Origin: a bacterium
Lineage (GTDB): Bacteria > Bacillota > Clostridia > Lachnospirales > Lachnospiraceae
Length of the DNA stretch: 64,000 bases
Direction of reading: 5' to 3'
Assembly: GCA_023663725.1 (NCBI GenBank)
Contig: JAMPGX010000008.1
Coordinates: 16,477-80,476 of the forward strand
Under the pieces are notes generated by a model. That model was given only the letters and a program-made list of their open reading frames with translations. It did not search any database and was not told where the DNA came from. The position numbers were made by a program, and so were the translations under genes. Positions 24,150 to 36,649 of this stretch are shown here, piece by piece. How positions within the stretch are numbered: the stretch's first letter is position 1; each line of letters begins with the position of its first letter.

Positions 24150-27100
24150 ATGAACGACTGCCTGCAATTATTTACCCGTCCGACGGCGGACTGGTTTCAG
24201 GAAAAGCTGGGAAGGCCGACTCAGGTACAGGAGGCGGCATGGCCTGCGATTGCCGCGGGCGGTCATGTGCTGGTCTCTGCCCCCACCGGGACGGGCAAGA
24301 CGCTCTCGGCCTTTCTGGTGTTCCTGGACAGACTGAGGGCGCAGGCCCAGGAGGGAAGCCTGAAGCGGGAGCTGCAGCTCATCTATGTGTCGCCGCTGAA
24401 ATCCCTGGCGGCGGACATTCGGGAGAATCTGCGCAGGCCCCTGGAGGGTATCGGCGGCCAGGAGTTGGTCTCCGTTGCCATTCGCACCGGAGACACGACC
24501 GCGCGGGAGCGGCAGCAGATGGTGAGAAAGCCGCCCCATATCCTGATCATCACTCCGGAATCTCTCTATCTGATGCTGACCAGCAAGACGGGGCAGAATG
24601 TGCTCTGCACCGCCAGGGCTGTCATCATAGATGAACTGCACGCGCTGATCGACACCAAGAGGGGGGCGCATCTGATGTTATCCCTGGCCAGGCTGGACGC
24701 TCTGTGCGGCAGGCCGCTGCAGCGCATTGGTCTGTCCGCCACTATCGCTCCGTTGGACCGGGCAGCCCAATACCTGGCCCCGGAGCCGGTGACAGTGGCG
24801 GCTCCCGCCATGGAAAAGGGAGTGCAGCTCCAGATATTGGGCCCCTACGCGGATGCGCGCAGGAAGCGCAAGGACCCGATATGGCAGGAGCTGGCGGAGC
24901 TGGTCTACCGGTACTGTGAAAACAGCCGCAGTGTCATCGCCTTTGTGGAGGGCAGGCGGTATGCGGAAAAGCTGGCCTACTATGTGAACCTGCTGGGCGG
25001 GGAGGAGTTCGCGCGGGTACATCACGGGAGTCTGGCCAAGGAACAGCGCCAGGAGACGGAGGCAGCCCTGCGGGATGGGCGGCTGCGGCTTCTGTGCGCG
25101 ACCTCCTCCATGGAGCTGGGTATCGACGTGGGAGAGATCGATCAGGTGTTGCAGGTGGGATGTCCCCGCACAGTCTCCAGCACCCTGCAGAGACTGGGTC
25201 GGGCCGGACACAATCCCTCCCGCACCAGCGTCATGTATCTGTTCCCCAGGACAGCGGCGGAATGCGTGCTCTGCGGCATGACGGCCCAGCTCGCAAGGGA
25301 GAACAGAGTGGAGAAGCTGAATCCCCCTGAGGGCTGTCTGGATATCCTGGCTCAGCATCTGGTCTCCATGGCGGCCTTCAAGCCCTATCAGGTGGACGAG
25401 GTCATGGAGCTGCTGCCCAGGGCATGGCCATTCCGCCATGTGACCAGGGAGGATGTGCAGTCGGTGCTGGAGATGCTGGCCGGAGACTATGAGCACAGTC
25501 GGGAGATCCCAGTTCGCCCGCGCATCCTGTACGACCGCATTCACGGCAGAGTGGAGGGGGATGGCTACAGCAGGATGCTGGCTGTCTCCGCCGGAGGGAC
25601 TATTCCCGACAGAGGTCTGTACACGGTGCGCACGCAGGACGGCGTCAAGGTGGGCGAGGCGGATGAGGAGTTTGTCTATGAGACGCAGAAGGGGGACCGT
25701 TTTATTCTGGGGGCTTTCGCGTGGCGGGTGACAGAGATCAGCAGGGATACGGTGACGGTAGTGCAGGCCCCTGTGGAGGGGGCAAGGCTCCCTTTTTGGC
25801 ACGGGGACCTGAAGGGGCGGAGCCTGGAGACGGGGGTGGCCTTTGGCGTTATGCTTCGGGCTCTCTCGGAGGCGGAGGAGCAGGGCAGGCTGAGGCAGGC
25901 CTTGGGAGAGCTGGGCCTGGATGAACCGGCGGCTCGGCTGGCAGAGGGATATCTGCAGCGCCAGATTGCCGCCACGGGAGGGCTGCCCGACGACAGGACG
26001 ATCCTGGTGGAGCATTTCCGAGATCAGTCCGGCCACAGCCAGATGATGATCCATTCTATCTTCGGGCGGCAGATCAACAGCCCCCTGGCTCTGCTGGCGG
26101 CGAGGCAGACCGGAGAAGAGATGGGGGAAAATGTGGGCAGCGTGGACGAGGAGGACGGCTTCCTGCTGTATTCCTACGGGGAAAATGAGATGCCGGAGGG
26201 CGTGCTCTACAGAGTGGACGCGGAGACGGCTGAGGCTGTGCTGGCGGCGCTACTGCCCTCTACGCCTCTCTTTAACATTGCCTTTCGCTACAACTGCGGC
26301 AGGGCGCTGATGATGGGGGTGCGGGGAAAGGGACGGCAGCCCCTGTGGATGCAGCGGCTTCGCAGCGCGGAGATGCTTGATCAGGTGGTGCGCGAGAAGG
26401 AGCACCCGCTGATGCGGGAGACCTGGCGGGAGTGTATGCGCCAGCTGTGGGACGTGGCGGGAGTGCGGGATATTTTGGAAAAAATCCAGGCCGGAGAGAT
26501 TCAGGTGCGGGAGATTTACACCGACACGGCCTCCCCCATGTCCCTGCCTCTGCAGTGGAGTCAGGAAGCCGCCATGATGTACGACTATGCGCCGACGCCT
26601 CGGGGCATCCAGAGGGCGGTGGAGGAGGCGCTCAGGGATGAAAAGGAGCTGGTGCGTCCCGGCAGTCAGGAGCTGGCTCAGGCACAGGAGCGAGGGAGAC
26701 TGCCGGAGAATGCGGAGCAGCTTCACACGCTGTTGATGACGGAGGGAGACCTGGCGGCGGGAGAGTTGGAGCTTCCGGTGGAGTGGCTGGAGGAGCTGGC
26801 GGAGGAGGAGCGCGCCCTGTATCTGGAGCAGGGACTCTGGATCGCCGCGGAGCAGCGGGAACAGTATGAGGGAGCCCTCGGCGGAGACGGGAGCAAAGCC
26901 GCGGATGTGGTACGGCGGATGCTGCGCTATCGGGGTGGGGCTACCGCCGGTCAGGTGGCGCTGCGATACGGTTGGAGACCGGAGGAGGCCCGTCTGGTGC
27001 TGGAGGAGCTGTGTCATAAGGGCGAGGCGGTGAGCCAGGAGGAGCTGCGGCGTGAAGAGGAAACGCAGTGTGCGGAGGGCAGCGCAGGCACGGCTGATAC

Positions 27101-28409
27101 CGCGCAGCATCCGCAGACCGTGTATTATCATGCTCAGCTATATCAGCGTGCAAGGATACGCACTCTGAAAAATCGCCGGGAGGAGATCGCCACCTGTCCG
27201 CCTGAGAGCTATGCGGCGTTGCTCCTGTCCCGCATACAGCGCCAGGCTCCGCCGCAGGAGGCCCTGCGGGAGACAGTCAGGTCCTTTGCGGGAATGTCCC
27301 TGCCCGCGGCGCTCTGGGAGGAGCTGGTTCTGCCCGCCAGAGTGCGGGGATATCGGGAGGCTCTTCTGGACGCGTTTCTCGCCCAGGGAGAGTATTTCTG
27401 GCATATGGAGGACAATGGCAGACTGCGCTTCGACTCCGCGGAGGAGCTTGACTGGGAGCGGGAGGCGCAGGTGCCGTGGGAAGAGTTGACAGACAGGGAG
27501 AAGAGGGTGGCGGAGGCGCTGATGCGGCGGGGCGCCAGCTTCCCCCTGTCTCTCAGCCATGTGTTGGACGGGGAATCGCCCTATGACACGCTGCTCTCCC
27601 TGATCGAGAAAGGATTGGTATGCGCGGACAGCTTTGTGCCGGTGCGACAGTGGCAGAACAGGGAGAAAACGCAGAAAGCTGCGGCCAGGCAGAGAGTGGG
27701 AGCCAGGGTTAAGGTGCTGCAGGCAGGACGGTTTGACCTGGTGAGGCCGCTGCGTACGCTGACCGTCCAGGAGCAGATGGAGAGATGCTTTGACCGCTAC
27801 CTGATTCTGTGTCGGGAGACGGCGGCCGCGTGGGGTTTGCCCTGGCAGGAGGCGCTGAGGCTCCTGCGGGTATGGGAATATACGGGGCAGGTACGGCGGG
27901 GTTATTTTGTGAGAGGGCTGTCGGGGGCGCAGTTTATCCGCAGGCAGGATTTCGAGAGCGTCACGGCCCGTCTGATGCACCCGCAGGCGCAGCTTGTCTG
28001 GCTGAATGCCGCCGACCCCATGCAGCCCTGGGGGAAGGTGCTGGCCCATGAGCCGGAGCGGAGCTTCATCAATGTGCCGGGTACTGCGGTGGCTTTCCGA
28101 GACGGTCTGCCTGTGGCGGTGTTTGAGCGGCAGGGCAAGACGCTGCGCTGTCTGGAGCCCGGATGGGAGGGGCAGCAGGGCGTCGCAGGCCGGGACAGCG
28201 CAGATCGGGGCGGTGTAGTCTGGGATAGCATGGCCCTGCGGGAAAGCCTGACGGAGCTTCTGGGCCTGTTTGTCCGAGAATTCCAGGGCGGCAGGATTTT
28301 TCCGGGCAGAAAACGCATCTCTGTAAAGGAATATCCGTCCTGGGCGGTCGAGGCTCTGGCGGAGAGCGGTTTTTTGCATGAGATACAGGACTATGTGCTG
28401 TACCGCTAG
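24150..28409 (+). CDS. lhr: Long Lhr-family SF2 helicase
   Basis: APTGTGKT, SPLKSL, DELH, SAT, HHGSL, QRLGRAGH, GGTIPD; extended Lhr-type C-terminal region. Confidence 0.88.
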   Translation: MNDCLQLFTRPTADWFQEKLGRPTQVQEAAWPAIAAGGHVLVSAPTGTGKTLSAFLVFLDRLRAQAQEGSLKRELQLIYVSPLKSLAADIRENLRRPLEGIGGQELVSVAIRTGDTTARERQQMVRKPPHILIITPESLYLMLTSKTGQNVLCTARAVIIDELHALIDTKRGAHLMLSLARLDALCGRPLQRIGLSATIAPLDRAAQYLAPEPVTVAAPAMEKGVQLQILGPYADARRKRKDPIWQELAELVYRYCENSRSVIAFVEGRRYAEKLAYYVNLLGGEEFARVHHGSLAKEQRQETEAALRDGRLRLLCATSSMELGIDVGEIDQVLQVGCPRTVSSTLQRLGRAGHNPSRTSVMYLFPRTAAECVLCGMTAQLARENRVEKLNPPEGCLDILAQHLVSMAAFKPYQVDEVMELLPRAWPFRHVTREDVQSVLEMLAGDYEHSREIPVRPRILYDRIHGRVEGDGYSRMLAVSAGGTIPDRGLYTVRTQDGVKVGEADEEFVYETQKGDRFILGAFAWRVTEISRDTVTVVQAPVEGARLPFWHGDLKGRSLETGVAFGVMLRALSEAEEQGRLRQALGELGLDEPAARLAEGYLQRQIAATGGLPDDRTILVEHFRDQSGHSQMMIHSIFGRQINSPLALLAARQTGEEMGENVGSVDEEDGFLLYSYGENEMPEGVLYRVDAETAEAVLAALLPSTPLFNIAFRYNCGRALMMGVRGKGRQPLWMQRLRSAEMLDQVVREKEHPLMRETWRECMRQLWDVAGVRDILEKIQAGEIQVREIYTDTASPMSLPLQWSQEAAMMYDYAPTPRGIQRAVEEALRDEKELVRPGSQELAQAQERGRLPENAEQLHTLLMTEGDLAAGELELPVEWLEELAEEERALYLEQGLWIAAEQREQYEGALGGDGSKAADVVRRMLRYRGGATAGQVALRYGWRPEEARLVLEELCHKGEAVSQEELRREEETQCAEGSAGTADTAQHPQTVYYHAQLYQRARIRTLKNRREEIATCPPESYAALLLSRIQRQAPPQEALRETVRSFAGMSLPAALWEELVLPARVRGYREALLDAFLAQGEYFWHMEDNGRLRFDSAEELDWEREAQVPWEELTDREKRVAEALMRRGASFPLSLSHVLDGESPYDTLLSLIEKGLVCADSFVPVRQWQNREKTQKAAARQRVGARVKVLQAGRFDLVRPLRTLTVQEQMERCFDRYLILCRETAAAWGLPWQEALRLLRVWEYTGQVRRGYFVRGLSGAQFIRRQDFESVTARLMHPQAQLVWLNAADPMQPWGKVLAHEPERSFINVPGTAVAFRDGLPVAVFERQGKTLRCLEPGWEGQQGVAGRDSADRGGVVWDSMALRESLTELLGLFVREFQGGRIFPGRKRISVKEYPSWAVEALAESGFLHEIQDYVLYR

Positions 28410-28535
28410 TGTGCTGCAACTGATGGCGTCGCTGACTGACGGCGCTGTGTGTCGGTGCATATGTCCGGCGTGGATGGAAGCCGCGTGCAGACATATGCGG
28501 TGCGGTGAATGGGAATATAGATTTGCATATGGAGG

Positions 28536-29417
28536 ATGTGGAACTTGTCAGGATACACAAGAGCAAAATATGTAATCAGGGGATTGATCTGCGTGGGGGT
28601 GCTGCTTCTGACATCCTGCGGCCAGGCAGAGAGGGAGTCCGCATCGGATGTGCCGGAAGCTTCGGTCAGCACGCAGGTATGTCCGGCAGATATGGATATC
28701 CCCTCATTATATGCGTTCTTTTCGCAAAATGTAGTCCTCGCGGCCGCTGAACGCCCCGGGGGAAGGCCCGCGCCGGACATGCAGGAATCTCAGGTCGATA
28801 GATGGGTATGGCTGGCGGATATGAATATTCATCCACTGTATGCCGCTTTTCTGCGGGGTGAAATCCGTGTAGCCAATCCCTTTGCGGAGGAGGATGAGCT
28901 GTCTTTTTTTGATGAGAGGGATTATGAACCCGAGCAGACATTCACGATGGCGAGCAAGAGTTTTTCGCTGGTGGACGTCAATGGGGATGGCGAGCCGGAA
29001 TTGATTTTCCGGATGGAGGATTCGCCGAGTGAGCTGGTCTATATTTTGGGGGTTCTGGGAGATGAGCTAACCTGCTTTGATGTATTTGAGACCCATACGA
29101 CGCATATGTCAGTCACCGTATATGACAATGGCATCGTCTGCTGGGGGCAGAATTATGACGGCAGCGAAGACATCTATTATAGTTATGACAGCGATGGCAA
29201 ATCCCGTGAACTGCTCCATTTTGTGGGGACGGAGGATGACCTTGCCTCAGAGCTGGAGTACGAGTATTATTACCTTGACGGAGACGGGGCTGCCAGGTTT
29301 TCTCTGGATAGTGTGGAGGAATATGAACGTCTGATCGCTCCCTATGAGGGGGAATACCTGGAATGGTTTCGCTGTGATGCCTTTGCGGACATACCTCGTG
29401 CGGAGAGCATTCCCTGA
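28536..29417 (+). CDS. Acidic lipoprotein of unknown function
   Basis: LTSC lipobox; DVNGDGEPEL Ca-binding-like loop. Confidence 0.7.
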   Translation: MWNLSGYTRAKYVIRGLICVGVLLLTSCGQAERESASDVPEASVSTQVCPADMDIPSLYAFFSQNVVLAAAERPGGRPAPDMQESQVDRWVWLADMNIHPLYAAFLRGEIRVANPFAEEDELSFFDERDYEPEQTFTMASKSFSLVDVNGDGEPELIFRMEDSPSELVYILGVLGDELTCFDVFETHTTHMSVTVYDNGIVCWGQNYDGSEDIYYSYDSDGKSRELLHFVGTEDDLASELEYEYYYLDGDGAARFSLDSVEEYERLIAPYEGEYLEWFRCDAFADIPRAESIP

Positions 29418-29534
29418 TGGGTATGCGGGCTTGCCGGAGCGCACATCTGCAGGTGAGTCCGCTGCCTTGCCTGCTGACGGCGCTTTGCGTATGAAGCCAG
29501 ACTTTGTGAGATAGAGGGGTAGGAGAGAAAGAAG

Positions 29535-31706
29535 ATGACAAATTACACGAGACCGGACAGGGCGTCCCTGAGAGCGGTGATTGCCTCCGCAGAGCGGGCG
29601 GATGGACAGTATCAATATGTGATGAATGTGGCTGGAGACTGCCGGAAGCAGATCCTGCACAACTATCAGGCGGAAAAAAAGGAGGCTGCAAATGAGCTGC
29701 TCAGGCAGATAGACGTGGAGGATTTGAACCGTCAAAAACAGGGCATCAGGGTGTCCCTGCTGCGGAGCGCTCATCTGGAGAATATCTATCAGGTATTGTG
29801 CGCGGGTCCGCGTCGTCTGATAAACATTAACGGCATCGGGGAGGCCGGGGCGGACAAAATCATGAGGATCGCTCGGATGTATCAGCAGGAGGCACAGAAA
29901 AAGGCCCGCATTCGGCTGGACGACGTGGAGAGGAATCCACGCCAGGCGGCCATTCTGCAAGGACTCTATCTGCTGCTGGAATTGCAGCAGGACTTCAAGC
30001 TGGCGGGCAGCGTCCAGGAGAAATGTCATCTTTCCGTGCAGGACAAGCTCCAGGGCACCCGACAACTACAGAGTAGTCTGGGATGGATCTTTAAGAGCGC
30101 CCGACAGAAGCAACAGGCGTTGGATGCCTATGTGCAACTGAGAACGCTGACTGGACAGGGTTATGTCAATATGGCGGCGAAGCTTCAGGGACACACCTGG
30201 CAGACGCTGGCACAGGATACGGGCGCTCTGAGCCGTCAGGCGTTTGCGCGCAACACCGCTCCTTTTTATGCCGCGCTGGAGGAGGTTACAGGAGAGAGAC
30301 TGGAGGAGAAGGCTTACTCCGGCGGTCTGTCCGAGGAATATGTGCAGAGCATCGAGACGCTGGATCTGGACCTGTCCCTGATGCGCTCCACCCTGCGACA
30401 GTATCAGCTTTTCGGCGTCAAATATATCCTGCAGAACCGACGGGTGCTGCTGGGGGACGAGATGGGACTGGGCAAGACCATCCAGGCCATCGCTTGCATG
30501 GCGCATCTGAAAGCGCAGGGCAAGACACATTTCCTGGTGGTTTGTCCCGTGAGTGTTATGGTCAACTGGAGCCGTGAGGTCAGCAATCACAGCACTCAGC
30601 AGGCACTGGAGATCCACGGGCTTGACCGCGGGGAGGAGTACGACCAGTGGGGACAGGAAGGCGGTGTCGGTATCACTACCTATGAGACGATCACGCGGCT
30701 GGAGCTGGGCGAGGAGCAGATTGATCTGCTGGTGGTGGACGAGGCTCACTATGTCAAGAACCCCAAGGCCCAGAGGACGCAGGCGTTGCAGCGACTGGCG
30801 CAGATTGCGGAGTACGTGCTGTTTATGACCGGCACCCCGCTGGAGAACCGGGTGGAGGAGATGATCTTCCTGGTGAGTATGTTAAACGGGGAAGTGGCGC
30901 GGAACCTGGAGCGGGTGGCCGCGATCTCCACGGCTGACAGTTTTCGAGAGGCGGCCAGCGAGGTATATCTGCGCCGCATCCGCGAGGATGTGCTGACAGA
31001 GCTGCCGGAGAAGGAGGAGAAACAGGAATGGTGCGCCATGAACCGCCAGGAGAGGGAGGCGTATTATCATTCCCTGCTGGAGGGCAACTATATGGCGGTG
31101 CGCCAGGTGTCCTGGAATGTGGAGGATATCAAAGATTCCTCTAAGGCGGCGCGTCTGCTGGAGCTCTGTGAGACTGCCAGGGAGAACGGCAGGCGGGTTA
31201 TCATTTTTTCCTTTTTCCTGCATACTATCCAGACTGTGATGCAGCTCCTGGGCGATCGGTGCTACGGCCCGATCAGCGGCGGCGTGTCGGGGGCAAAGCG
31301 GCAGGAGATATTGGACGCGTTTGGAGAGAGCGCGCCGGGCAGCGTACTGGTGAGTCAGATCATCGCCGGAGGCACTGGCATCAATGTGCAGGCGGCCAGC
31401 GTCGTGATCCTCTGCGAGCCGCAGTGGAAGCCCTCCACGGAGGAGCAGGCCATCTCCAGAGCCTATCGCATGGGACAGCAGCAGAAGGTCATGGTACACA
31501 GGCTTCTCTCGCAGAACAGCATCGACGAGAGGATGCTGGAGATCCTGCAGGGAAAGGCGGATATCTTCGAGCGTTTCGCCCAGGAATCCGTGGCTGGCGA
31601 GCGGATGAAGGAGATGAGCGAGGAGACCGCCATGAAGCTGATCATTCGGGCGGAGCTGGAGCGGCTGCAGGCCCAGGAGAACTTGGGAGAGGCAGCCACG
31701 GAATAG
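29535..31706 (+). CDS. SNF2-family helicase/ATPase with N-terminal helix-hairpin-helix
   Basis: LGDEMGLGKT, DEAH, TGTPLEN, GGTGINVQAA, QAISRAYRMGQ; INGIGEAGA HhH-like motif. Confidence 0.9.
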   Translation: MTNYTRPDRASLRAVIASAERADGQYQYVMNVAGDCRKQILHNYQAEKKEAANELLRQIDVEDLNRQKQGIRVSLLRSAHLENIYQVLCAGPRRLININGIGEAGADKIMRIARMYQQEAQKKARIRLDDVERNPRQAAILQGLYLLLELQQDFKLAGSVQEKCHLSVQDKLQGTRQLQSSLGWIFKSARQKQQALDAYVQLRTLTGQGYVNMAAKLQGHTWQTLAQDTGALSRQAFARNTAPFYAALEEVTGERLEEKAYSGGLSEEYVQSIETLDLDLSLMRSTLRQYQLFGVKYILQNRRVLLGDEMGLGKTIQAIACMAHLKAQGKTHFLVVCPVSVMVNWSREVSNHSTQQALEIHGLDRGEEYDQWGQEGGVGITTYETITRLELGEEQIDLLVVDEAHYVKNPKAQRTQALQRLAQIAEYVLFMTGTPLENRVEEMIFLVSMLNGEVARNLERVAAISTADSFREAASEVYLRRIREDVLTELPEKEEKQEWCAMNRQEREAYYHSLLEGNYMAVRQVSWNVEDIKDSSKAARLLELCETARENGRRVIIFSFFLHTIQTVMQLLGDRCYGPISGGVSGAKRQEILDAFGESAPGSVLVSQIIAGGTGINVQAASVVILCEPQWKPSTEEQAISRAYRMGQQQKVMVHRLLSQNSIDERMLEILQGKADIFERFAQESVAGERMKEMSEETAMKLIIRAELERLQAQENLGEAATE

Positions 31707-31736
31707 CTGCAAAAGGATAGCGGTAAAAAAGAGTGT

Positions 31737-31769
31737 AAAGCCATTGACAATTAAACAGACTTTGCACTC
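31737..31769. repeat. Left arm of a ~34-bp inverted repeat pair; overlaps hairpin 31727-31773
   Basis: AAAGCCATTGACAATTAAACAGACTTTGCACTC matches the reverse complement of 32205-32238 with 3 mismatches and 1 gap. Confidence 0.8.
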
Positions 31770-31805
31770 TTTTGGTCGGTATATTCGGCTATGTGGCTTC
31801 TGCAG

Positions 31806-32165
31806 TTACCTTGGTATCAGATCATTCATCTTGAGTATTTCTTCTATTGTATCCATGCCGTCCTGCAATCTTGCGAGTTTCTTGTTGGTTTCTTTTTCAA
31901 AAAGCTTTTGCGAAAGCTGTAATTCGTTCAACTGTTCCTGCATTTTGTCCTGCTTGACTTCCATTGCATCCATGCGATTTTCCATCCTATCAAGCCTGGA
32001 ATCCACTTTGTCAAGCCTGGAGTCCACTTTGTCAAGCCTGGAGTCCACTTTGTCAAGCCTGGAGTCCACTTTGTCAAGCCTGAAATCCACTTTATCAAGT
32101 CTGGAATTCACTTTATCAAGCTGACCGATAATTTCCTGAAACATTTCTTTGGTTTCCTTGTCCAT
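31806..32165 (-). CDS. 119-aa coiled-coil protein with (LDKVDSR)n heptad repeat
   Basis: GGGAGG RBS; in-frame 21-bp repeats. Confidence 0.85.
   Translation of the reverse strand: MDKETKEMFQEIIGQLDKVNSRLDKVDFRLDKVDSRLDKVDSRLDKVDSRLDKVDSRLDRMENRMDAMEVKQDKMQEQLNELQLSQKLFEKETNKKLARLQDGMDTIEEILKMNDLIPR
31990..32121. repeat. 21-bp tandem repeat, 6 copies plus a partial
   Basis: Unit TCAAGCCTGGAGTCCACTTTG, head-to-tail with no spacers. Confidence 0.95.
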
Positions 32166-32204
32166 TTGTTTATACCTCCCGTATGAAGAAGTATACCACC
32201 TCCG

Positions 32205-32238
32205 GAGTGTAAAGTCTATTTAATTGTCAAAGGGCTTT
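32205..32238. repeat. Right arm of the inverted repeat; carries the likely -35 of the heptad gene promoter
   Basis: On the minus strand TAGACT-17-TATACT with TG extension reads into the gene. Confidence 0.7.
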
Positions 32239-32401
32239 CAGTTTTCTATGCAGACTGCTCCAATTTTTACTGTGTTTGTGATTCCTGTCGGGGTCGTTTT
32301 TTATATTTTCCAGGAATTTCGAGGCGTGAAGAGGGCGTGTAAGTGACATACCGTAGGCAACGGCTTACAATAACTCCAAACAGCGAAAGGGAGGTAAGTC
32401 C

Positions 32402-32995
32402 ATGGAATACGGTTACGCGCGGGTTTCTACGAAGGAGCAGAATGAGAGGAGACAGTTTGCCGCTCTACAGGAATTTGGAATTGAAAAAGGCAGGATATAT
32501 GTGGATAAGCAGTCCGGGAAAAATTTTGAGCGTTCAGAGTATCAGCGGCTGCTGGGCAGATTGCGGCAGGGGGATACGCTTGTCATTCAGAGCATCGATC
32601 GCCTGGGGAGGAACTACGAGGAAATCCTGGAACAGTGGAGGATCATCACCAAGGAGAAACAGGTGAGCATCGTGGTACTGGATATGCCATTGCTGGACAC
32701 CCGCCAAAGCAGAGATCTGACAGGGACGCTGATTGTCGATATTGTCCTGCAGCTTCTCTCCTATGTGGCCCAGACGGAGCGGGAGTTCATTCGTCAGCGG
32801 CAGGCGGAGGGAATCGCCATAGCAAAACAGCAGGGTGTGAAATTCGGACGCAGACCCATGGAGCGCCCACAGGAATACGAGCTACTGAAAAAACAATGGC
32901 AACAGGGAAAAATCTCCGCCAGAAACGCCGCCAGGCAGTTGGTAGTCACACATCGGACATTCCTGCTCTGGGCTAATGAGAGTGCGGATGGATAA
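32402..32995 (+). CDS. Serine recombinase (resolvase/invertase family)
   Basis: YGYARVSTKEQNERRQ, DKQSGK, SIDRLGRN, ER..IRQRQAEGI..AK..GVKFGR; upstream dyad TGTAAG-N20-CTTACA at 32338-32369. Confidence 0.95.
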   Translation: MEYGYARVSTKEQNERRQFAALQEFGIEKGRIYVDKQSGKNFERSEYQRLLGRLRQGDTLVIQSIDRLGRNYEEILEQWRIITKEKQVSIVVLDMPLLDTRQSRDLTGTLIVDIVLQLLSYVAQTEREFIRQRQAEGIAIAKQQGVKFGRRPMERPQEYELLKKQWQQGKISARNAARQLVVTHRTFLLWANESADG

Positions 32996-33161
32996 AGAAA
33001 TACAATTTGGTATCCAGATCGAAATCTGCCAAATATCCTATTTTTATGAAAAGAAGTATATCACATAGGGAATGTTTTTACAAGTCTGAAATGGAAAATA
33101 GTGAGTGCGTGGAGGCTTTTAAGACGCGGGTCTTTATATATGATCCTTGTGAATTGAAGAC

Positions 33162-33253
33162 TTGACAAATGTCATGACTCATATATGATAAGAGATACAA
33201 CAGCAGAAAAAATAACGCTTCCGCGTTTTGTGGACGTTATTTTTTCTGCTGTT
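33162..33253 (+). promoter_or_regulatory. Promoter and long leader hairpin of Rpn copy 1
   Basis: TTGACA-16-TATGAT; hairpin AACAGCAGAAAAAATAACG/CGTTATTTTTTCTGCTGTT followed by Ts. Confidence 0.75.
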
Positions 33254-33288
33254 TTAATATTTTTTGAAAAAAGAGGAGGAGCTTACGA

Positions 33289-33966
33289 ATGGTAAAAGAG
33301 GATGGAAAAGGGATTACCAACAGGGCGGTAAAGGACAGCGCCTTCACAGCGTACTTTGGCGAACCCGAAAACGCCTGCAAGCTGTATGCGGCGCTGGGAG
33401 ACGGGGAGGTATCCCCAGAGGATATCACCTATGTGACGCTGGACGGGGTGTTGTTTATAGCCAGAAAGAACGACCTTGCTTTCACGGTAAAGAACCGTGT
33501 GCTGGTGATCAGTGAACATCAATCCACACTCAACGAAAATATGCCCTTGCGGGATTTGCTTTACCTGGGCCGCACACTGGAAAAATTGCTGGACGAGAGG
33601 ATGATCTACCGACGCAAGCTGTTCCAGATTCCTACGTCGGAGTTCTATGTCTTTTACAATGGTGATGAGCCGTGTCCACCGGAGAAAATTTTGCGGCTTT
33701 CCGATGCTTTTCTTGATAAAACGGAGCATCCTATGGTAGAATTGGAAGTGAAAGTAATCAATATCAATCTGCCGTCGGGACACAGGTTGCTGAAGGAATG
33801 CCGCCCGATGTACGAGTACTCCTGGTTCATCCAGCGGATTAAGGATTACCTGGGAGCTGGATGGATTCGGGACGAGGCATATGAGGCCGGTCTGGGCAAG
33901 GACAGGGCAGCCCAGGCCCGACGGGTCATATACACTTTTCTGGAGCAATTGAAAGAGAGCCCCTAG
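33289..33966 (+). pseudogene. Rpn-family PD-(D/E)XK nuclease, copy 1, with internal deletion and amber stop
   Basis: Close paralog of 35405; jumps from RDEA to EAYE; GAG->TAG at 33964; homology continues to ~34010. Confidence 0.75.
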
Positions 33967-34023
33967 GATATCCGCCGCCATATTAAGGGAGAGCAGGACG
34001 GTAAGCCCTCGAAAGATCAGCGA

Positions 34024-34815
34024 TCAGTTCTGCTGCTTCCAGCATCGAAACAAGCAGAGCCACTGGATATATAAGGTCACGCCGTCTTCATGGGCATGGG
34101 GTAGCCCTGCCTGTTTTAACGCTGTGGACACCTGTCTCTTTGTGAGAAGGCTGTTCCTGCCCCAGATTCCGTATTTGAAGGAATGCTCAACAAAACGCCT
34201 AAAGTCCTTCAGATCACTCTTGCATAAATCCGGCGCTGCTTTCCTGGAAAAATGCACCAGCACGGAATTTACAGAGGGCATGGGGTGAAAATCCTCCCTG
34301 TGGAAATGATAGAGGATCTTCATATCCCAGTTTACCTTAAGCAGCAGGGACTGCTTTGTCTCCTTTCCCGCCCCTGTGAATCTTTTGGCAGCGCCTTTTT
34401 CCATGATTAACCAAATATCCTTCGGCGGATTGGGAGCGCCCGTCAGCTTATCCAGAATTTGCGTGGTAATGCAATAAGGAATATTGGAAAAGACCTTGTA
34501 ATCCCCCTCTGTTGGGAGGGAATATTTTAAAAAGTCTTCGTGGACCAGGCGCAGATTGGAATATTTGGCCAGTTTATGCTTAGAGCCTTCATATAATTTT
34601 CGGTCAAGCTCTGCGGAATACACCTGTCCGCTTTTCCTGCACAATGCCTCTGTCAGATGTCCCTTCCCCGTTCCGATCTCAATGACTGTGTCATTTTGAT
34701 GAATATCGGTGAGGTGAAGAAGCCTTTGAATCAGGGCGCTGCTTGTGATAAAGTTTTGGGAATCTGATAATTTTACACTGTGATTGAGAGTGGACTGTCT
34801 CCTGCTTTTTTTCAT
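34024..34815 (-). CDS. erm: Erm-family 23S rRNA adenine N6-methyltransferase, ErmQ-like (putative MLSB resistance)
   Basis: SQNF, VIEIGTGKG, ELD, FSNIPY, EKGAAKRF, FHPMPSV; start reset to ATG 34815 behind AGGAGG (263 aa). Confidence 0.85.
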   Translation of the reverse strand: MKKSRRQSTLNHSVKLSDSQNFITSSALIQRLLHLTDIHQNDTVIEIGTGKGHLTEALCRKSGQVYSAELDRKLYEGSKHKLAKYSNLRLVHEDFLKYSLPTEGDYKVFSNIPYCITTQILDKLTGAPNPPKDIWLIMEKGAAKRFTGAGKETKQSLLLKVNWDMKILYHFHREDFHPMPSVNSVLVHFSRKAAPDLCKSDLKDFRRFVEHSFKYGIWGRNSLLTKRQVSTALKQAGLPHAHEDGVTLYIQWLCLFRCWKQQN

Positions 34816-34854
34816 GATATGCCTCCTTTTTGTCTTATTGGCCAGAGCAACAAA

Positions 34855-35135
34855 AAAGGCAATAAAAAAGCAGGATATTCTCCTGAAACGGAAATTCCCT
34901 GCAAAACTCATACAAGCCGGCCATTCAACAGTAGAACAGCCGAACACGGTGTCGGTCAAACATTTGTGTGTTGGTTTGTATTGCACGCAAAAAAATCCCA
35001 TTTACATGAGACGATATATCTGCTTTTTTACTGCCCCTGAATACGGGACTTTCTGCAATTACAAACACCCACTGTACGAAACCGCCTTTCGTTTGTTATC
35101 TCTGTTAATATACTATATTTATGCCAGGTTGTCAA
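34855..35135 (-). promoter_or_regulatory. erm promoter and candidate attenuator leader
   Basis: TTGACA(35135)-17-TATATT; GCAGG...CCTGC hairpin plus T6 at ~34864-34902; complementary AAAAAAGCAGATAT segment at 35016-35029. Confidence 0.6.
35028..35072 (-). CDS. Putative erm leader peptide MGVCNCRKSRIQGQ
   Basis: GTG start 9 nt after AAAGGCGG; contains K-S-R (+X+) motif; stop overlaps the antiterminator strand. Confidence 0.5.
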   Translation of the reverse strand: MGVCNCRKSRIQGQ

Positions 35136-35276
35136 TTCCCTGAGCTTTTTTCTACAGTATATAGTAGCCGATTTTGTATGCGGTAATCTCTGTTACCATT
35201 GATAAAAATGGTATACTGCCGTACCCAGTGTAAAAATTTTGAAGAATTCAGAAAGTTATTTTTGTGAATCGAAGGC

Positions 35277-35369
35277 TTGACAAATGCTCTGCCCCTTGTA
35301 TAATAAGAGATACAACAGCAGAAAGAATAACGGTTCCGCATTTTTGTGGACGTTATTCTTTCTGCTGTT
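35277..35369 (+). promoter_or_regulatory. Promoter and long leader hairpin of Rpn copy 2
   Basis: TTGACA-16-TATAAT; hairpin AACAGCAGAAAGAATAACG/CGTTATTCTTTCTGCTGTT followed by Ts. Confidence 0.78.
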
Positions 35370-35404
35370 TTATATTTAATTGAAAAAAGAGGAGGAGTTT
35401 ACGA

Positions 35405-36649
35405 ATGGCAAAAGTGGATGGAAAAGGGATTACCAATCGGGCGGTAAAGGACAGCGCTTTCACGGCGTACTTTGGCGAACCCGAAAACGCGTGCAAGCTG
35501 TATGCAGCGCTGGGGGATGGGGAGGTGTCTCCAGAGGATATTGCTTATGTGACTTTGGACGGAGTGTTGTTTATCGCCAGGAAGAATGATCTGGCGTTCA
35601 CGGTAAAGAACCGTGTGCTGGTCATCAGTGAGCATCAGTCTACAATCAACGAGAACATGCCCCTGAGGGATCTGCTCTATTTGGGGCGTACACTGGAGAA
35701 ACTGCTGAATAAAAGGTTGATCTACCGACGTAAGCTGTTTCAGATCCCTACGCCGGAGTTCTATGTCTTTTACAATGGAGACGAGCCATGTCCGCCGGAA
35801 AAAATTTTGCGGCTTTCCGATGCTTTCCTTGATCAAACAGAGCATCCTATGGTAGAATTGGAAGTGAAAGTAATCAACATTAATCTGCCGTCAGGACATA
35901 AGCTGCTGCAGGACTGTCGTCCGATGTACGAGTATTCCTGGTTTATCCAGAGGATCAAGGATTATCTGGGGGCTGGATGGGGCAGGGATGAAGCGATCAC
36001 TCAGGCGGTTAAAGACTGTATGGAAGAGGGAATCCTGACGGGGTTCATAAGAGAACATGGTTCGGAGGTGGTAAATATGCTGTATACACAGTGGAATTAC
36101 GATGATGCGGTTGCGGTGGAGAGGGAAGAGGCATATGAGGATGGGAGACTTGCGGAGAGCCGTCAAGTCATATATTCTTTTCTGAAACAGTTGGGAGAGA
36201 TTCCCGAGGATATTCGCAGCAGTATCGAGAGAGAGCAGGATAGTGAGGTGTTGAAAAAGTGGTATATGACCGCGCCCCGTATAAAAAGCTTTGAAGAATT
36301 CAGAATATTTATAGGCGGACAGAAGCAGAACACCTCGGAGGTGGTAAATATGCTGTATACACAGTGGAATTACGATGATGCGGTTGCGGTGGAGAGGGAG
36401 GAGGCATATGAAGACGGATTGAGCAAGGGCAGGAAAGAGGGGCTGACGAGAGGTAGAATAGTCGAAGCCCGACGGGTCATATACACTTTTCTGGAGCAAT
36501 TGGGAGAGATTCCCGAGGATATCCGCCACCATATTGAGGACGAGCAGGACAGTGAGGTTCTGAAAAAGTGGTACACCGCCGCGCCTCTGGTGAAAAGCTT
36601 TGCGGAATTCCGTGAAAATATGTACGATAGGGATAATATTGGGGATTGA
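35405..36649 (+). CDS. Rpn-family PD-(D/E)XK nuclease, copy 2, with duplicated C-terminal domain
   Basis: KDSAF..YF, RKNDLAF, SEHQST.NENMPLR motifs; C-terminal EREEAYEDG repeats. Confidence 0.85.
   Translation: MAKVDGKGITNRAVKDSAFTAYFGEPENACKLYAALGDGEVSPEDIAYVTLDGVLFIARKNDLAFTVKNRVLVISEHQSTINENMPLRDLLYLGRTLEKLLNKRLIYRRKLFQIPTPEFYVFYNGDEPCPPEKILRLSDAFLDQTEHPMVELEVKVININLPSGHKLLQDCRPMYEYSWFIQRIKDYLGAGWGRDEAITQAVKDCMEEGILTGFIREHGSEVVNMLYTQWNYDDAVAVEREEAYEDGRLAESRQVIYSFLKQLGEIPEDIRSSIEREQDSEVLKKWYMTAPRIKSFEEFRIFIGGQKQNTSEVVNMLYTQWNYDDAVAVEREEAYEDGLSKGRKEGLTRGRIVEARRVIYTFLEQLGEIPEDIRHHIEDEQDSEVLKKWYTAAPLVKSFAEFRENMYDRDNIGD
36062..36600 (+). repeat. 273-bp-period intragenic tandem duplication; each unit starts with GGAGGTG-N6-ATG
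   Basis: TCGGAGGTGGTAAATATGCTGTATACACAGTGG... at 36062 and 36335; in-frame ATGs at 36077 and 36350. Confidence 0.92.

What the first reader, a model, noticed from the sequence alone, without database searches (positions are those of the whole stretch)
36062..36649. Rpn nuclease with two tandem intragenic small-protein starts
Seen: a 273-bp duplication in which each unit begins with GGAGGTG, 6 nt, and an in-frame ATG (36077, 36350). This predicts 190-aa and 99-aa products nested in the 414-aa protein; unit starts are identical while unit ends diverge. Established: Rpn-family proteins are toxic anti-phage DNases inhibited by separately translated C-terminal RpnS proteins. Inference: the antitoxin module has been duplicated and diversified, giving a three-product gene.
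Basis: partly seen in the sequence, partly recalled or inferred. Interest (0 to 1): 0.7.

Follow-up and report, generated by a model that had tools for sequence, protein, structure and literature searches.

The report
Rpn nuclease with two fused antitoxin tails
A gut-Firmicute gene of the Rpn toxic-nuclease family, which normally carries one built-in antidote tail with its own internal start, here carries two different tails joined in frame, each with that start; this is a rare variation on a published design, and nobody has yet shown that three proteins are made.

Summary
ORF 35405-36649 (414 aa) ends in two tandem tail units (36062-36334 and 36335-36649). Each opens with GGAGGTG-N6-ATG in frame, at 36077 and 36350.

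The protein is a divergent Rpn (YhgA-like) nuclease. It misses the Pfam, NCBIfam and PADLOC thresholds itself. Its relatives hit PF04754 and PF12784, it aligns to E. coli RpnA across D...EHQS, and its tail is 47% identical to tails of canonical Rpn paralogs.

Across 69 homologs the internal ATG and the GAG codon are invariant, and GGAGG sits 8 nt upstream in 61. A conserved in-ORF promoter-like site (TTGAxx-N17/18-TGnTAGAAT) lies 218 nt upstream of the internal ATG. One relative carries the same module as free-standing downstream ORFs. So the first internal start is a family feature.

The two units are old and diverged (dS about 1-1.6). They differ by three 4-residue repeats, which set L/S pairing specificity in E. 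coli. Only this lineage, the window plus one 94% ortholog, has both tails in one frame, and both are under purifying selection.

Production of three proteins is plausible but untested. E. coli rpnE-ypaA, and many earlier notes of this scan on other DNA, show the free-standing version. I class it as a new variant of a known kind.

The parts
35277..35304 (+). Sigma-70-type promoter of the full-length gene (TTGACA-16-TATAAT, 12/12)
   Evidence: the same sequence lies upstream of ortholog L098
35316..35371 (+). Leader hairpin (17-bp arms CAGCAGAAAGAATAACG / CGTTATTCTTTCTGCTG) followed by a T-run, lying between the promoter and the RBS. It looks like a terminator or attenuator that limits the full-length transcript.
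   Evidence: The arms are conserved and the loops vary in Acetatifactor-clade homologs. Its function is inferred.
35405..36649 (+). Full-length ORF (414 aa), the predicted RpnL-type protein carrying both tails
35405..36061 (+). N-terminal PD-(D/E)XK nuclease-type domain (residues 1-219) with D62 and E76-H77-Q78-S79
   Evidence: hhalign to E. coli RpnA: probability 82%, E 1e-5, motif aligned. The residues are nearly invariant in 56 homologs. 17 of 56 members hit PF04754 and 7 hit PF12784.
35829..35858 (+). In-ORF promoter-like site (TTGATC-18-TGgTAGAAT), the candidate promoter of the short transcript
   Evidence: There is a peak of synonymous-site conservation here. TGnTAGAAT is present in 55 of 69 homologs, always 218 nt before the internal ATG. 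Transcription was not tested.
36062..36334 (+). Tail unit 1 (the lineage's own type of tail, with no 4-residue repeats)
36064..36079 (+). Internal start 1: GGAGGTG-N6-ATG (Met225). The predicted 190-aa product runs 36077-36649.
   Evidence: ATG 69/69, GAG 69/69, GGAGG 61/69 at a fixed spacing
36335..36649 (+). Tail unit 2 (a diverged tail, 89% identical to the tail remnant of the neighbouring copy 1)
36337..36352 (+). Internal start 2: an identical GGAGGTG-N6-ATG (Met316). The predicted 99-aa product runs 36350-36649.
   Evidence: unchanged in ortholog L098 while flanking bases differ. Translation is untested.
36416..36451 (+). 36 nt encoding GLSKGRKEGLTR, three 4-residue repeats present in unit 2 and absent from unit 1. 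They lengthen the first tail helix.
   Evidence: The AF2 model gives helix 232-261 in unit 1 and 325-364 in unit 2.

Best explanation
This is a divergent Lachnospiraceae member of the Rpn (YhgA-like) long/short toxin-antitoxin-type nuclease family. One reading frame carries two different C-terminal 'S' modules in tandem.

Predicted expression (inferred):
- The full-length protein (414 aa; PD-(D/E)XK domain plus both tails) is transcribed from the upstream promoter through a leader terminator-like hairpin.
- A conserved promoter-like site inside the nuclease-coding region gives a short transcript. On it the conserved GGAGG-N8-ATG at 36077 starts a 190-aa protein made of tail 1 plus tail 2.
- The identical site at 36350 can start a 99-aa protein made of tail 2 alone.

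Predicted function, by analogy with E. coli RpnL/RpnS:
- The tail proteins pair with the matching tails of the long protein through the long first helix and hold the nuclease inactive.
- Tail 1 (no 4-residue repeats) and tail 2 (three more repeats) should be distinct pairing specificities.

Status of each step:
- Shown: the anatomy, family membership by remote homology, nucleotide-level conservation of the first internal start and of the in-ORF promoter-like site, persistence of the two-tail ORF under purifying selection in two lineages, and its rarity.
- Inferred: translation from either internal start, toxicity, antitoxin action and phage defence.

Origin: most likely the joining of two already diverged S modules. 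This could be recombination through the conserved 5' block, or loss of the stop in front of a once-separate downstream S gene. A recent in-place duplication is unlikely.
For: Family membership:
- 17 of 56 homologs hit PF04754 and 7 hit PF12784.
- hhalign to E. coli RpnA gives probability 82%, E 1e-5, with D...EHQS aligned.
- The tail is 47% identical (E 2e-24) to the tail of a canonical PF12784/TIGR01784 paralog in the same genome.
- Some homologs are named 'Rpn family' by NCBI.

First internal start:
- ATG is present in 69/69 homologs and GAG in 69/69, against 49% GAG usage in these genes.
- The preceding residue varies (S/T/A/K/R) but its codon ends in G in 61/69. TCG is used for 44 of 52 Ser, against 13% usage.
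- GGAGG always lies 8 nt from the ATG.
- There is a peak of synonymous conservation at codons 217-226.
- In L020 the same SD-ATG heads free-standing S ORFs placed right after a stop codon.
- Many stand-alone 70-130-aa relatives start at the same Met.
- E. coli RpnA has the same layout, AAGGAG-N6-ATG (PMC10400941).

In-ORF promoter.

Repeats: the tract begins about 20 residues after the Met, and repeat number varies among close relatives from 0 to more than 10.

Two-tail ORF:
- It is conserved in ortholog L098 with both starts intact.
- dN/dS is 0.06 (N-terminal domain), 0.12 (unit 1) and 0.27 (unit 2).
- Only this lineage has it: 379 bits against 148 or less for all others.
Against: - No expression evidence of any kind exists for this gene.
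- The window protein itself hits no Pfam, NCBIfam or PADLOC model.
- Neither predicted structure gave a significant PDB match, including RpnA-S 7TH0.
- hhalign of the tails to RpnA-S is weak (probability 33%).
- The second start owes its presence to the duplication, so it is not independent evidence. It has been kept in only two sampled lineages.
- Ribosomes reading from start 1 pass over start 2 and may suppress it.
- In the window gene the -35 of the in-ORF promoter is the weakest variant seen (TTGATC).
Confidence: 0.6

Rival explanations
1. A two-product gene with a passenger second start. The long protein and the 190-aa two-tail protein are the only meaningful products. The SD-ATG at 36350 is carried along because the residues SEVVNM and the conserved 5' block belong to the tail fold, and a separate 99-aa protein is made little or not at all.
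For: - The second site is an exact copy and so is not independent evidence.
- It lies inside a frame translated from start 1.
- In the window a small hairpin (CACCU-CGG-AGGUG) can pair part of the second SD, though it is weak and not conserved in L098.
- No in-ORF promoter-like site was found between the two starts.
Against: - The site is as strong as start 1, with GGAGGTG at the same spacing.
- The same module drives free-standing S ORFs in L020.
- The 21-nt core is unchanged in L098 while bases on both sides differ.
Confidence: 0.25
2. A read-through accident. A once-separate downstream S gene (the rpnE-ypaA or L020 type) lost its preceding stop codon. The extra tail on the long protein has no role of its own, and the gene works as an ordinary Rpn long/short pair plus a spare S, or is on the way to decay.
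For: - L020 shows the separate-ORF form in this subfamily.
- Unit 1 ends ...ATA GGC GGA where L020 has ...ATA GGC TGA.
- The units are old (dS about 1-1.6).
- The locus is rearranged: a truncated copy 1, an erm gene and a stray tail-end remnant lie just upstream.
- The arrangement is confined to one lineage.
Against: - The fused frame is intact in two lineages separated by 87 substitutions, with dN/dS of 0.12 and 0.27 in the two tails.
- The nuclease motifs are intact.
- The stop-loss reading of the junction rests on a three-codon resemblance.
Confidence: 0.12
3. Not a toxin-antitoxin arrangement. The conserved internal SD-like sequence serves another purpose, such as a translational pause, and the tails are DNA-binding HTH-like domains of a recombination or nuclease enzyme with no separately made small protein.
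For: - The tails give only weak HTH-type Pfam hits.
- There is no structural match to RpnA-S.
- No functional data exist for this subfamily.
Against: - The ATG is invariant as well as the SD, and the spacing is fixed.
- Free-standing ORFs start at that Met.
- A conserved in-ORF promoter-like site is present.
- The layout is the same as the experimentally proven E. coli and C. difficile cases (PMC10400941).
Confidence: 0.03

Closest known systems
E. coli RpnL/RpnS intragenic toxin-antitoxin systems (RpnA-E, RpnP2; also a C. difficile Rpn), Zhong et al. 2023, PNAS, PMC10400941
   Same: - An N-terminal PD-(D/E)XK domain with the D...EHQS motif.
- A variable helical C-terminal tail.
- An in-frame SD embedded in a Glu codon a few codons before a Met (RpnA: AAGGAG-N6-ATG; here GGAGGTG-N6-ATG).
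- An internal promoter upstream of that start.
- 4-residue repeats in the first tail helix beginning about 20 residues after the Met, with their number varying between close relatives.
- Many paralogs per genome.
   Different: - This subfamily falls below the Pfam and NCBIfam thresholds.
- The tail has four predicted helices and no PF14261 hit.
- Two diverged tails lie in one frame, so two nested small products are predicted instead of one.
- Nothing here has been tested experimentally.
E. coli rpnE-ypaA (rpnE-Ss) and rpnC-rpnC-Ss: a second, free-standing copy of the S module downstream of the rpn gene (PMC10400941). L020 in this subfamily has the same layout, as do many earlier notes of this scan.
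   Same: A second S module with its own SD-ATG lies directly behind the first, and the copies differ in repeat number.
   Different: In those cases a stop codon separates the copies, so the long protein has one tail. Here there is no stop in either of two independent assemblies. The long protein and the first small protein therefore both carry the two tails covalently linked.
Stand-alone tandem S-S proteins without a nuclease domain (P0165, P0176, P0159 from the representative search)
   Same: Two tail modules in one polypeptide.
   Different: They carry no nuclease domain in the called protein. They belong to distant lineages, and their genomic context was not examined.

Membership tests
Rpn / YhgA-like nucleases (COG5464; PF04754, PF12784, TIGR01784) | A significant match of the protein itself to a family model | tested here: not met
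   There is no hit to PF04754, PF12784 or TIGR01784 at E <= 1, and PADLOC gives none. A genome-wide scan with these three models does not pick up this gene.
Rpn / YhgA-like nucleases (COG5464; PF04754, PF12784, TIGR01784) | Homology of the N-terminal domain to known members (transitive or profile-based) | tested here: met
   17 of 56 aligned homologs hit PF04754 (best E 1e-6) and 7 hit PF12784. hhalign of the family profile against E. coli RpnA gives probability 82%, E 1e-5, over residues 16-131.
Rpn / YhgA-like nucleases (COG5464; PF04754, PF12784, TIGR01784) | PD-(D/E)XK-type catalytic motif D...E-x-Q (IEHQS in RpnA) | tested here: met
   D62, E76, H77, Q78 and S79 are present and at least 90% conserved. 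They align to RpnA ...SD...LIEHQST. Foldseek on the AF2 model gave only non-significant hits, several of them to PD-(D/E)XK nucleases.
RpnL/RpnS gene-within-gene systems | An in-frame internal SD plus start codon at the beginning of the C-terminal tail | tested here: met
   Present twice. The first is conserved in 69/69 homologs with codon choices that preserve GGAGG. Translation itself cannot be tested with these tools.
RpnL/RpnS gene-within-gene systems | An internal promoter giving a short transcript | tested here: inconclusive
   A conserved TTGAxx-N17/18-TGnTAGAAT lies 218 nt upstream of the internal ATG, with synonymous-site constraint.
RpnL/RpnS gene-within-gene systems | A hypervariable tract of 4-residue repeats in the first tail helix, starting 8-20 residues after the Met | tested here: met
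   The repeats (xxGx)n start about 20 residues after Met. Their number ranges from 0 to more than 10 among close relatives. The AF2 helix is 30 residues in unit 1 and 40 in unit 2.
RpnL/RpnS gene-within-gene systems | Tail homologous to known RpnS / DUF4351 modules | tested here: inconclusive
   For: 47% identity (E 2e-24) to the tail of a canonical PF12784/TIGR01784 paralog. Weak or negative: hhalign to E. coli RpnA-S gives probability 33%, E 5e-4, in register; there is no PF14261 hit; there is no Foldseek hit to 7TH0.
RpnL/RpnS gene-within-gene systems | The long protein is a toxic DNA endonuclease, the short protein binds and inhibits it, and the system protects against phage | not testable with these tools
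   This needs expression, nuclease, SOS-reporter and plaque assays.
Free-standing downstream S genes (rpnE-ypaA type) | The second S module is a separate ORF behind a stop codon | tested here: not met
   No stop lies between the units in the window or in ortholog L098. L020 in the same subfamily does meet this feature.

The most novel reading that the evidence does not exclude
The in-frame fusion is functional and creates a two-specificity lock. The long protein has two different pairing helices (0 and 3 repeats). It is controlled by two nested antitoxins, a bivalent 190-aa protein and a monovalent 99-aa protein. Release of the nuclease would then need both interactions to be broken, or the second tail may fold back on the first as a built-in cis inhibitor. 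Either would be a way to combine two Rpn specificities in one gene, which has not been described.
Probability: 0.15. Interest if true: 0.6.

Novelty: new variant of a known kind. Interest (0 to 1): 0.4.

Why it matters
Rpn genes are a published example of an antitoxin encoded inside its toxin gene, and the number of 4-residue repeats sets which short protein blocks which long protein. A natural gene that links two tails of different repeat number in one frame, each with its own start, offers a ready-made test of three questions:

- How does tail pairing control the nuclease?
- Can one long protein answer to two antitoxins?
- How do spare antitoxin copies arise and fuse?

Two practical points also follow. 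This subfamily has thousands of members in gut Lachnospiraceae and is missed by current Pfam, NCBIfam and PADLOC models. Its internal start and in-ORF promoter-like site are clear enough to annotate from sequence.

The gain is incremental. The principle, and the free-standing form of the duplication, are already known.

Tried and rejected
- **Family models on the window protein.** Pfam, NCBIfam and PADLOC gave nothing. Sequence searches of the PDB with the protein and with profiles gave only spurious repeat or low-score hits.
- **Structure search.** Foldseek of the full-length AF2 model (pLDDT 79) and of the 99-aa model (pLDDT 70) against the PDB gave no significant match. RpnA-S (7TH0) was not recovered. 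Structure therefore neither supports nor refutes membership.
- **Occlusion of the second SD.** A 5-bp hairpin exists in the window, but it is not significant and is not kept in the ortholog. I rejected it as a feature.
- **In-place duplication versus acquired tail.** A tree of tail sequences places unit 1, unit 2 and L021 in one neighbourhood without resolving them. I rejected 'recent local duplication' on dS of about 1.6, but the exact origin stays open.
- **Three-way comparison with copy 1.** I used it to test whether gene conversion explains the mosaic divergence between orthologs. It is uninformative, because an outgroup matches one of two alleles under any model.
- **Other two-tail proteins in this subfamily.** A search found none beyond the ortholog cluster.
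- **Longer homologs.** I considered that those of 374-396 aa had duplicated tails. They have expanded repeat tracts instead.

Full report
**1. The observation**

The + strand carries one 414-aa ORF at 35405-36649. The repeat finder reports a direct repeat with copies starting at 36062 and 36335. The first 83 nt are 80/83 identical. The remainder (36143-36301 against 36452-36610) is 75% identical and offset by 36 nt. Both copies open with TCGGAGGTGGTAAATATG, so GGAGGTG-N6-ATG lies in frame at 36077 and at 36350. The nested frames are 190 and 99 aa long.

GGAGG-N5-9-ATG alone occurs 42 times in the window against 21 expected by chance. The motif is therefore weak evidence by itself.

**2. What the protein is**

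The protein matches no Pfam, NCBIfam or PADLOC model and no PDB sequence. It has more than 7,800 relatives, mostly Acetatifactor and other Lachnospiraceae. A few are named 'Rpn family recombination-promoting nuclease/putative transposase' by NCBI.

The evidence for Rpn membership is as follows:
- In an alignment of 56 members (A1), D62 and E76-H77-Q78-S79 are nearly invariant.
- 17 members hit PF04754 (YhgA-like) and 7 hit PF12784.
- The family profile aligns to E. coli RpnA with 82% probability (E 1e-5), placing ISEHQS on RpnA's IEHQS.
- The tail is 47% identical (E 2e-24) to the tail of a paralog in the same genome that is a clear PF12784/TIGR01784 member.

The genome holds about 11 PF12784-type genes, about 9 PF04754-type genes and about 6 genes of this subfamily.

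AlphaFold2 gives a mixed alpha/beta N-terminal domain followed by two helical tails (pLDDT 79). Foldseek finds nothing significant in the PDB. The weak hits include several PD-(D/E)XK nucleases.

I conclude that this is a divergent Rpn-superfamily nuclease. This rests on remote homology, not on a direct model hit.

**3. The internal start is a family feature**

I extracted 69 non-identical homologous genes that align at this position, out of 70 collected, from loci in public genomes and from the window's own genome. I then examined the DNA at the position aligned to Met225.

- ATG is present in 69/69.
- The codon four positions upstream is Glu in all, and always GAG. GAG makes up 49% of Glu codons in these genes.
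- The residue before it changes between Ser, Thr, Ala, Lys and Arg, yet its codon ends in G in 61/69. TCG is used for 44 of 52 Ser, although TCG is only 13% of Ser codons.
- As a result GGAGG lies exactly 8 nt before the ATG in 61/69, and GAGG in all. This holds down to 40%-identical Treponema genes (AAGGAGGTAATCAACATG).

A profile of codon identity among same-residue pairs has a baseline of 0.47 and rises to 0.69-0.71 at codons 217-226.

In one relative (L020, Acetatifactor sp.) the rpn gene is followed by two more tail modules. Each sits directly behind a stop codon and is preceded by GGAACGGAGGCGGTAAAT-ATG. One has an in-frame TAG and the other is an intact 84-aa ORF. The three tails carry 3, 2 and 1 repeats.

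An exhaustive representative search with the 99-aa product found 362 relatives. Many are stand-alone proteins of 70-130 aa that start at the same Met. Some may be fragments called at contig ends.

Canonical PF12784 paralogs in this genome show the same E-V-x-x-M layout, with GAGGT upstream of the ATG. E. coli RpnA has AAGGAG-N6-ATG at K240-E241...M244. That is the site Zhong et al. mutated to abolish RpnA-S (PMC10400941).

**4. A conserved in-ORF promoter-like site**

The second peak of synonymous conservation (0.62-0.71, codons 139-154) coincides with the one promoter-like site that the scan found inside the nuclease-coding region. This is TTGATC-18-TAGAAT with a TG extension, at 35829-35858.

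The codons there are nearly fixed:
- Leu142 is CTT in 53 of 57 Leu, against 17% usage.
- Pro148 is CCT in 51 of 58.
- Residue 150 is NTA in 57 of 70.
- Glu151 is GAA in 61 of 66.

TGnTAGAAT is present in 55/69 genes. The full TTGAxx-N17/18-TGnTAGAAT is present in 50/69, always 218 nt before the internal ATG. This matches the internal promoter reported for the E. coli rpn genes.

Upstream of the ORF a perfect promoter (35277-35304) is followed by a 17-bp-stem hairpin and a T-run (35316-35371), before the RBS. The arms of this hairpin are conserved across the Acetatifactor clade.

Together these features suggest low output of the long protein and higher output of the short ones. That is inferred.

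**5. The two tails**

The predicted first helix is 30 residues in unit 1 (232-261) and 40 in unit 2 (325-364). The difference is the 12 residues GLSKGRKEGLTR, which are three 4-residue repeats.

Close relatives with a single tail of the unit 1 type (GR[L/I]AESRQVIY) have 0, 1, 4 or 6 repeats. Longer homologs (374-396 aa) have expanded repeat tracts and not a second tail.

Zhong et al. report three relevant facts. The repeats start 8-20 residues after the Met, they lengthen the first helix, and an RpnC-S blocks only an RpnC-L with the same repeat number. By that rule the two tails here are different specificities.

**6. Age and origin**

- Between unit 1 and unit 2, dS is 0.30 (dN 0) in the first 22 codons and 1.57 in the rest, with dN/dS 0.12.
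- In a tail tree the two units sit near each other and near L021, but they are not resolved as sisters. Each is about as similar to tails from other species (0.72-0.76) as to the other unit.
- The 5' block is the most conserved part of the tail in the whole family. This explains most of the 'identical start, diverged end' pattern.
- Unit 2 is 89% identical over 84 nt to the tail remnant of the truncated neighbouring copy (33916-33999). That copy's N-terminal part is 87% identical to this gene.
- Unit 1 ends ...ATA GGC GGA, where L020 has ...ATA GGC TGA followed by the next module.

I therefore favour the joining of two already diverged modules. Candidate routes are recombination through the conserved block or loss of a stop before a once-separate S gene. 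The data do not settle which route applies.

**7. Persistence and rarity**

An independent assembly (L098, from a public run) has the orthologous gene with the same flanks. It has 87 nt differences, no frame disruption and both SD-ATG cores unchanged.

| Region | dN/dS | dS |
|---|---|---|
| N-terminal domain | 0.06 | 0.37 |
| Unit 1 | 0.12 | 0.08 |
| Unit 2 | 0.27 | 0.22 |

Divergence along the gene is patchy, which hints at recombination.

A search restricted to residues 225-414 gives 379 bits for that ortholog and at most 148 for everything else. Among about 80 loci only L020 has extra tail copies, and those are separate ORFs. The in-frame two-tail form is thus confined to this lineage as far as the databases reach.

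**8. Comparison with what is known**

The design is that of RpnL/RpnS: a nuclease, an internal promoter, an internal start, a tail with 4-residue repeats, and many paralogs. Zhong et al. also describe second, free-standing S copies (rpnE-ypaA, rpnC-rpnC-Ss) and fusions that replace the original tail. This scan has noted free-standing copies in many other genomes.

What is different here is that no stop separates the two modules. The long protein and the first short protein therefore both carry two different tails, and two nested short products are predicted. I found no paper describing this.

**9. Verdict**

- The Rpn reading and the first internal start are well supported by comparative evidence.
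- 'Three products' and antitoxin function remain predictions.
- I class the finding as a new variant of a known kind, of moderate interest.

Noticed in passing
window 35316-35371: A leader hairpin with 17-bp arms and a T-run lies between the -10 and the RBS of the rpn gene. The arm sequence CAGCAGAAAGAATAAC...GTTATTCTTTCTGCTG is conserved in about 10 Acetatifactor-clade homologs, while the loop varies and forms its own small stem. It is probably an attenuator or terminator limiting the long transcript.
   Followed up: partly
window 33147-33999: An upstream rpn copy 1 is 87% identical over promoter, leader and N-terminal domain. It lacks the SEVVNM internal-start segment and has an in-frame stop in its tail. 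Its tail remnant (33916-33999) is 89% identical to unit 2, not to unit 1.
   Followed up: partly
window 34024-35001 (- strand): An rRNA adenine dimethylase (Erm-type, PF00398, E 3e-45) lies antisense between the two rpn copies.
   Followed up: no
window 35232-35265: A stray tail end (KNFEEFRKLFL*, 91% identical over 22 nt to the end of unit 1) lies just upstream of the gene's promoter. It looks like a relic of an earlier rpn tail at this spot.
   Followed up: no
L020 2173-3015 (Acetatifactor sp., CAZKAO010000047.1): An rpn gene is followed by two free-standing tail ORFs, each with its own GGAGG-N8-ATG right after the previous stop. Repeat numbers are 3, 2 and 1. The middle copy has an in-frame TAG.
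   Followed up: yes
G000 (whole genome): There are about 25 Rpn-superfamily genes in a 3.6-Mb genome: about 11 PF12784-type, about 9 PF04754-type and about 6 of the unrecognised subfamily, including a tandem pair on contig 22.
   Followed up: partly
P0165, P0176, P0159 (representative search): These are proteins of 180-220 aa made of two tandem tail modules with no nuclease domain, from distant lineages. Their genomic context was not examined.
   Followed up: no
window 35405-36649 vs L098 412-1656: Divergence between the two orthologs is patchy. It is low at 35405-35640 and across unit 1, and high at 35645-36060 and 36425-36545. This suggests recombination or gene-conversion patches.
   Followed up: partly
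window 24150-32995: An Lhr-type helicase (1419 aa), an SNF2-family helicase (723 aa) and a serine resolvase lie upstream of the rpn pair. An ABC-2 transporter operon lies downstream.
   Followed up: no
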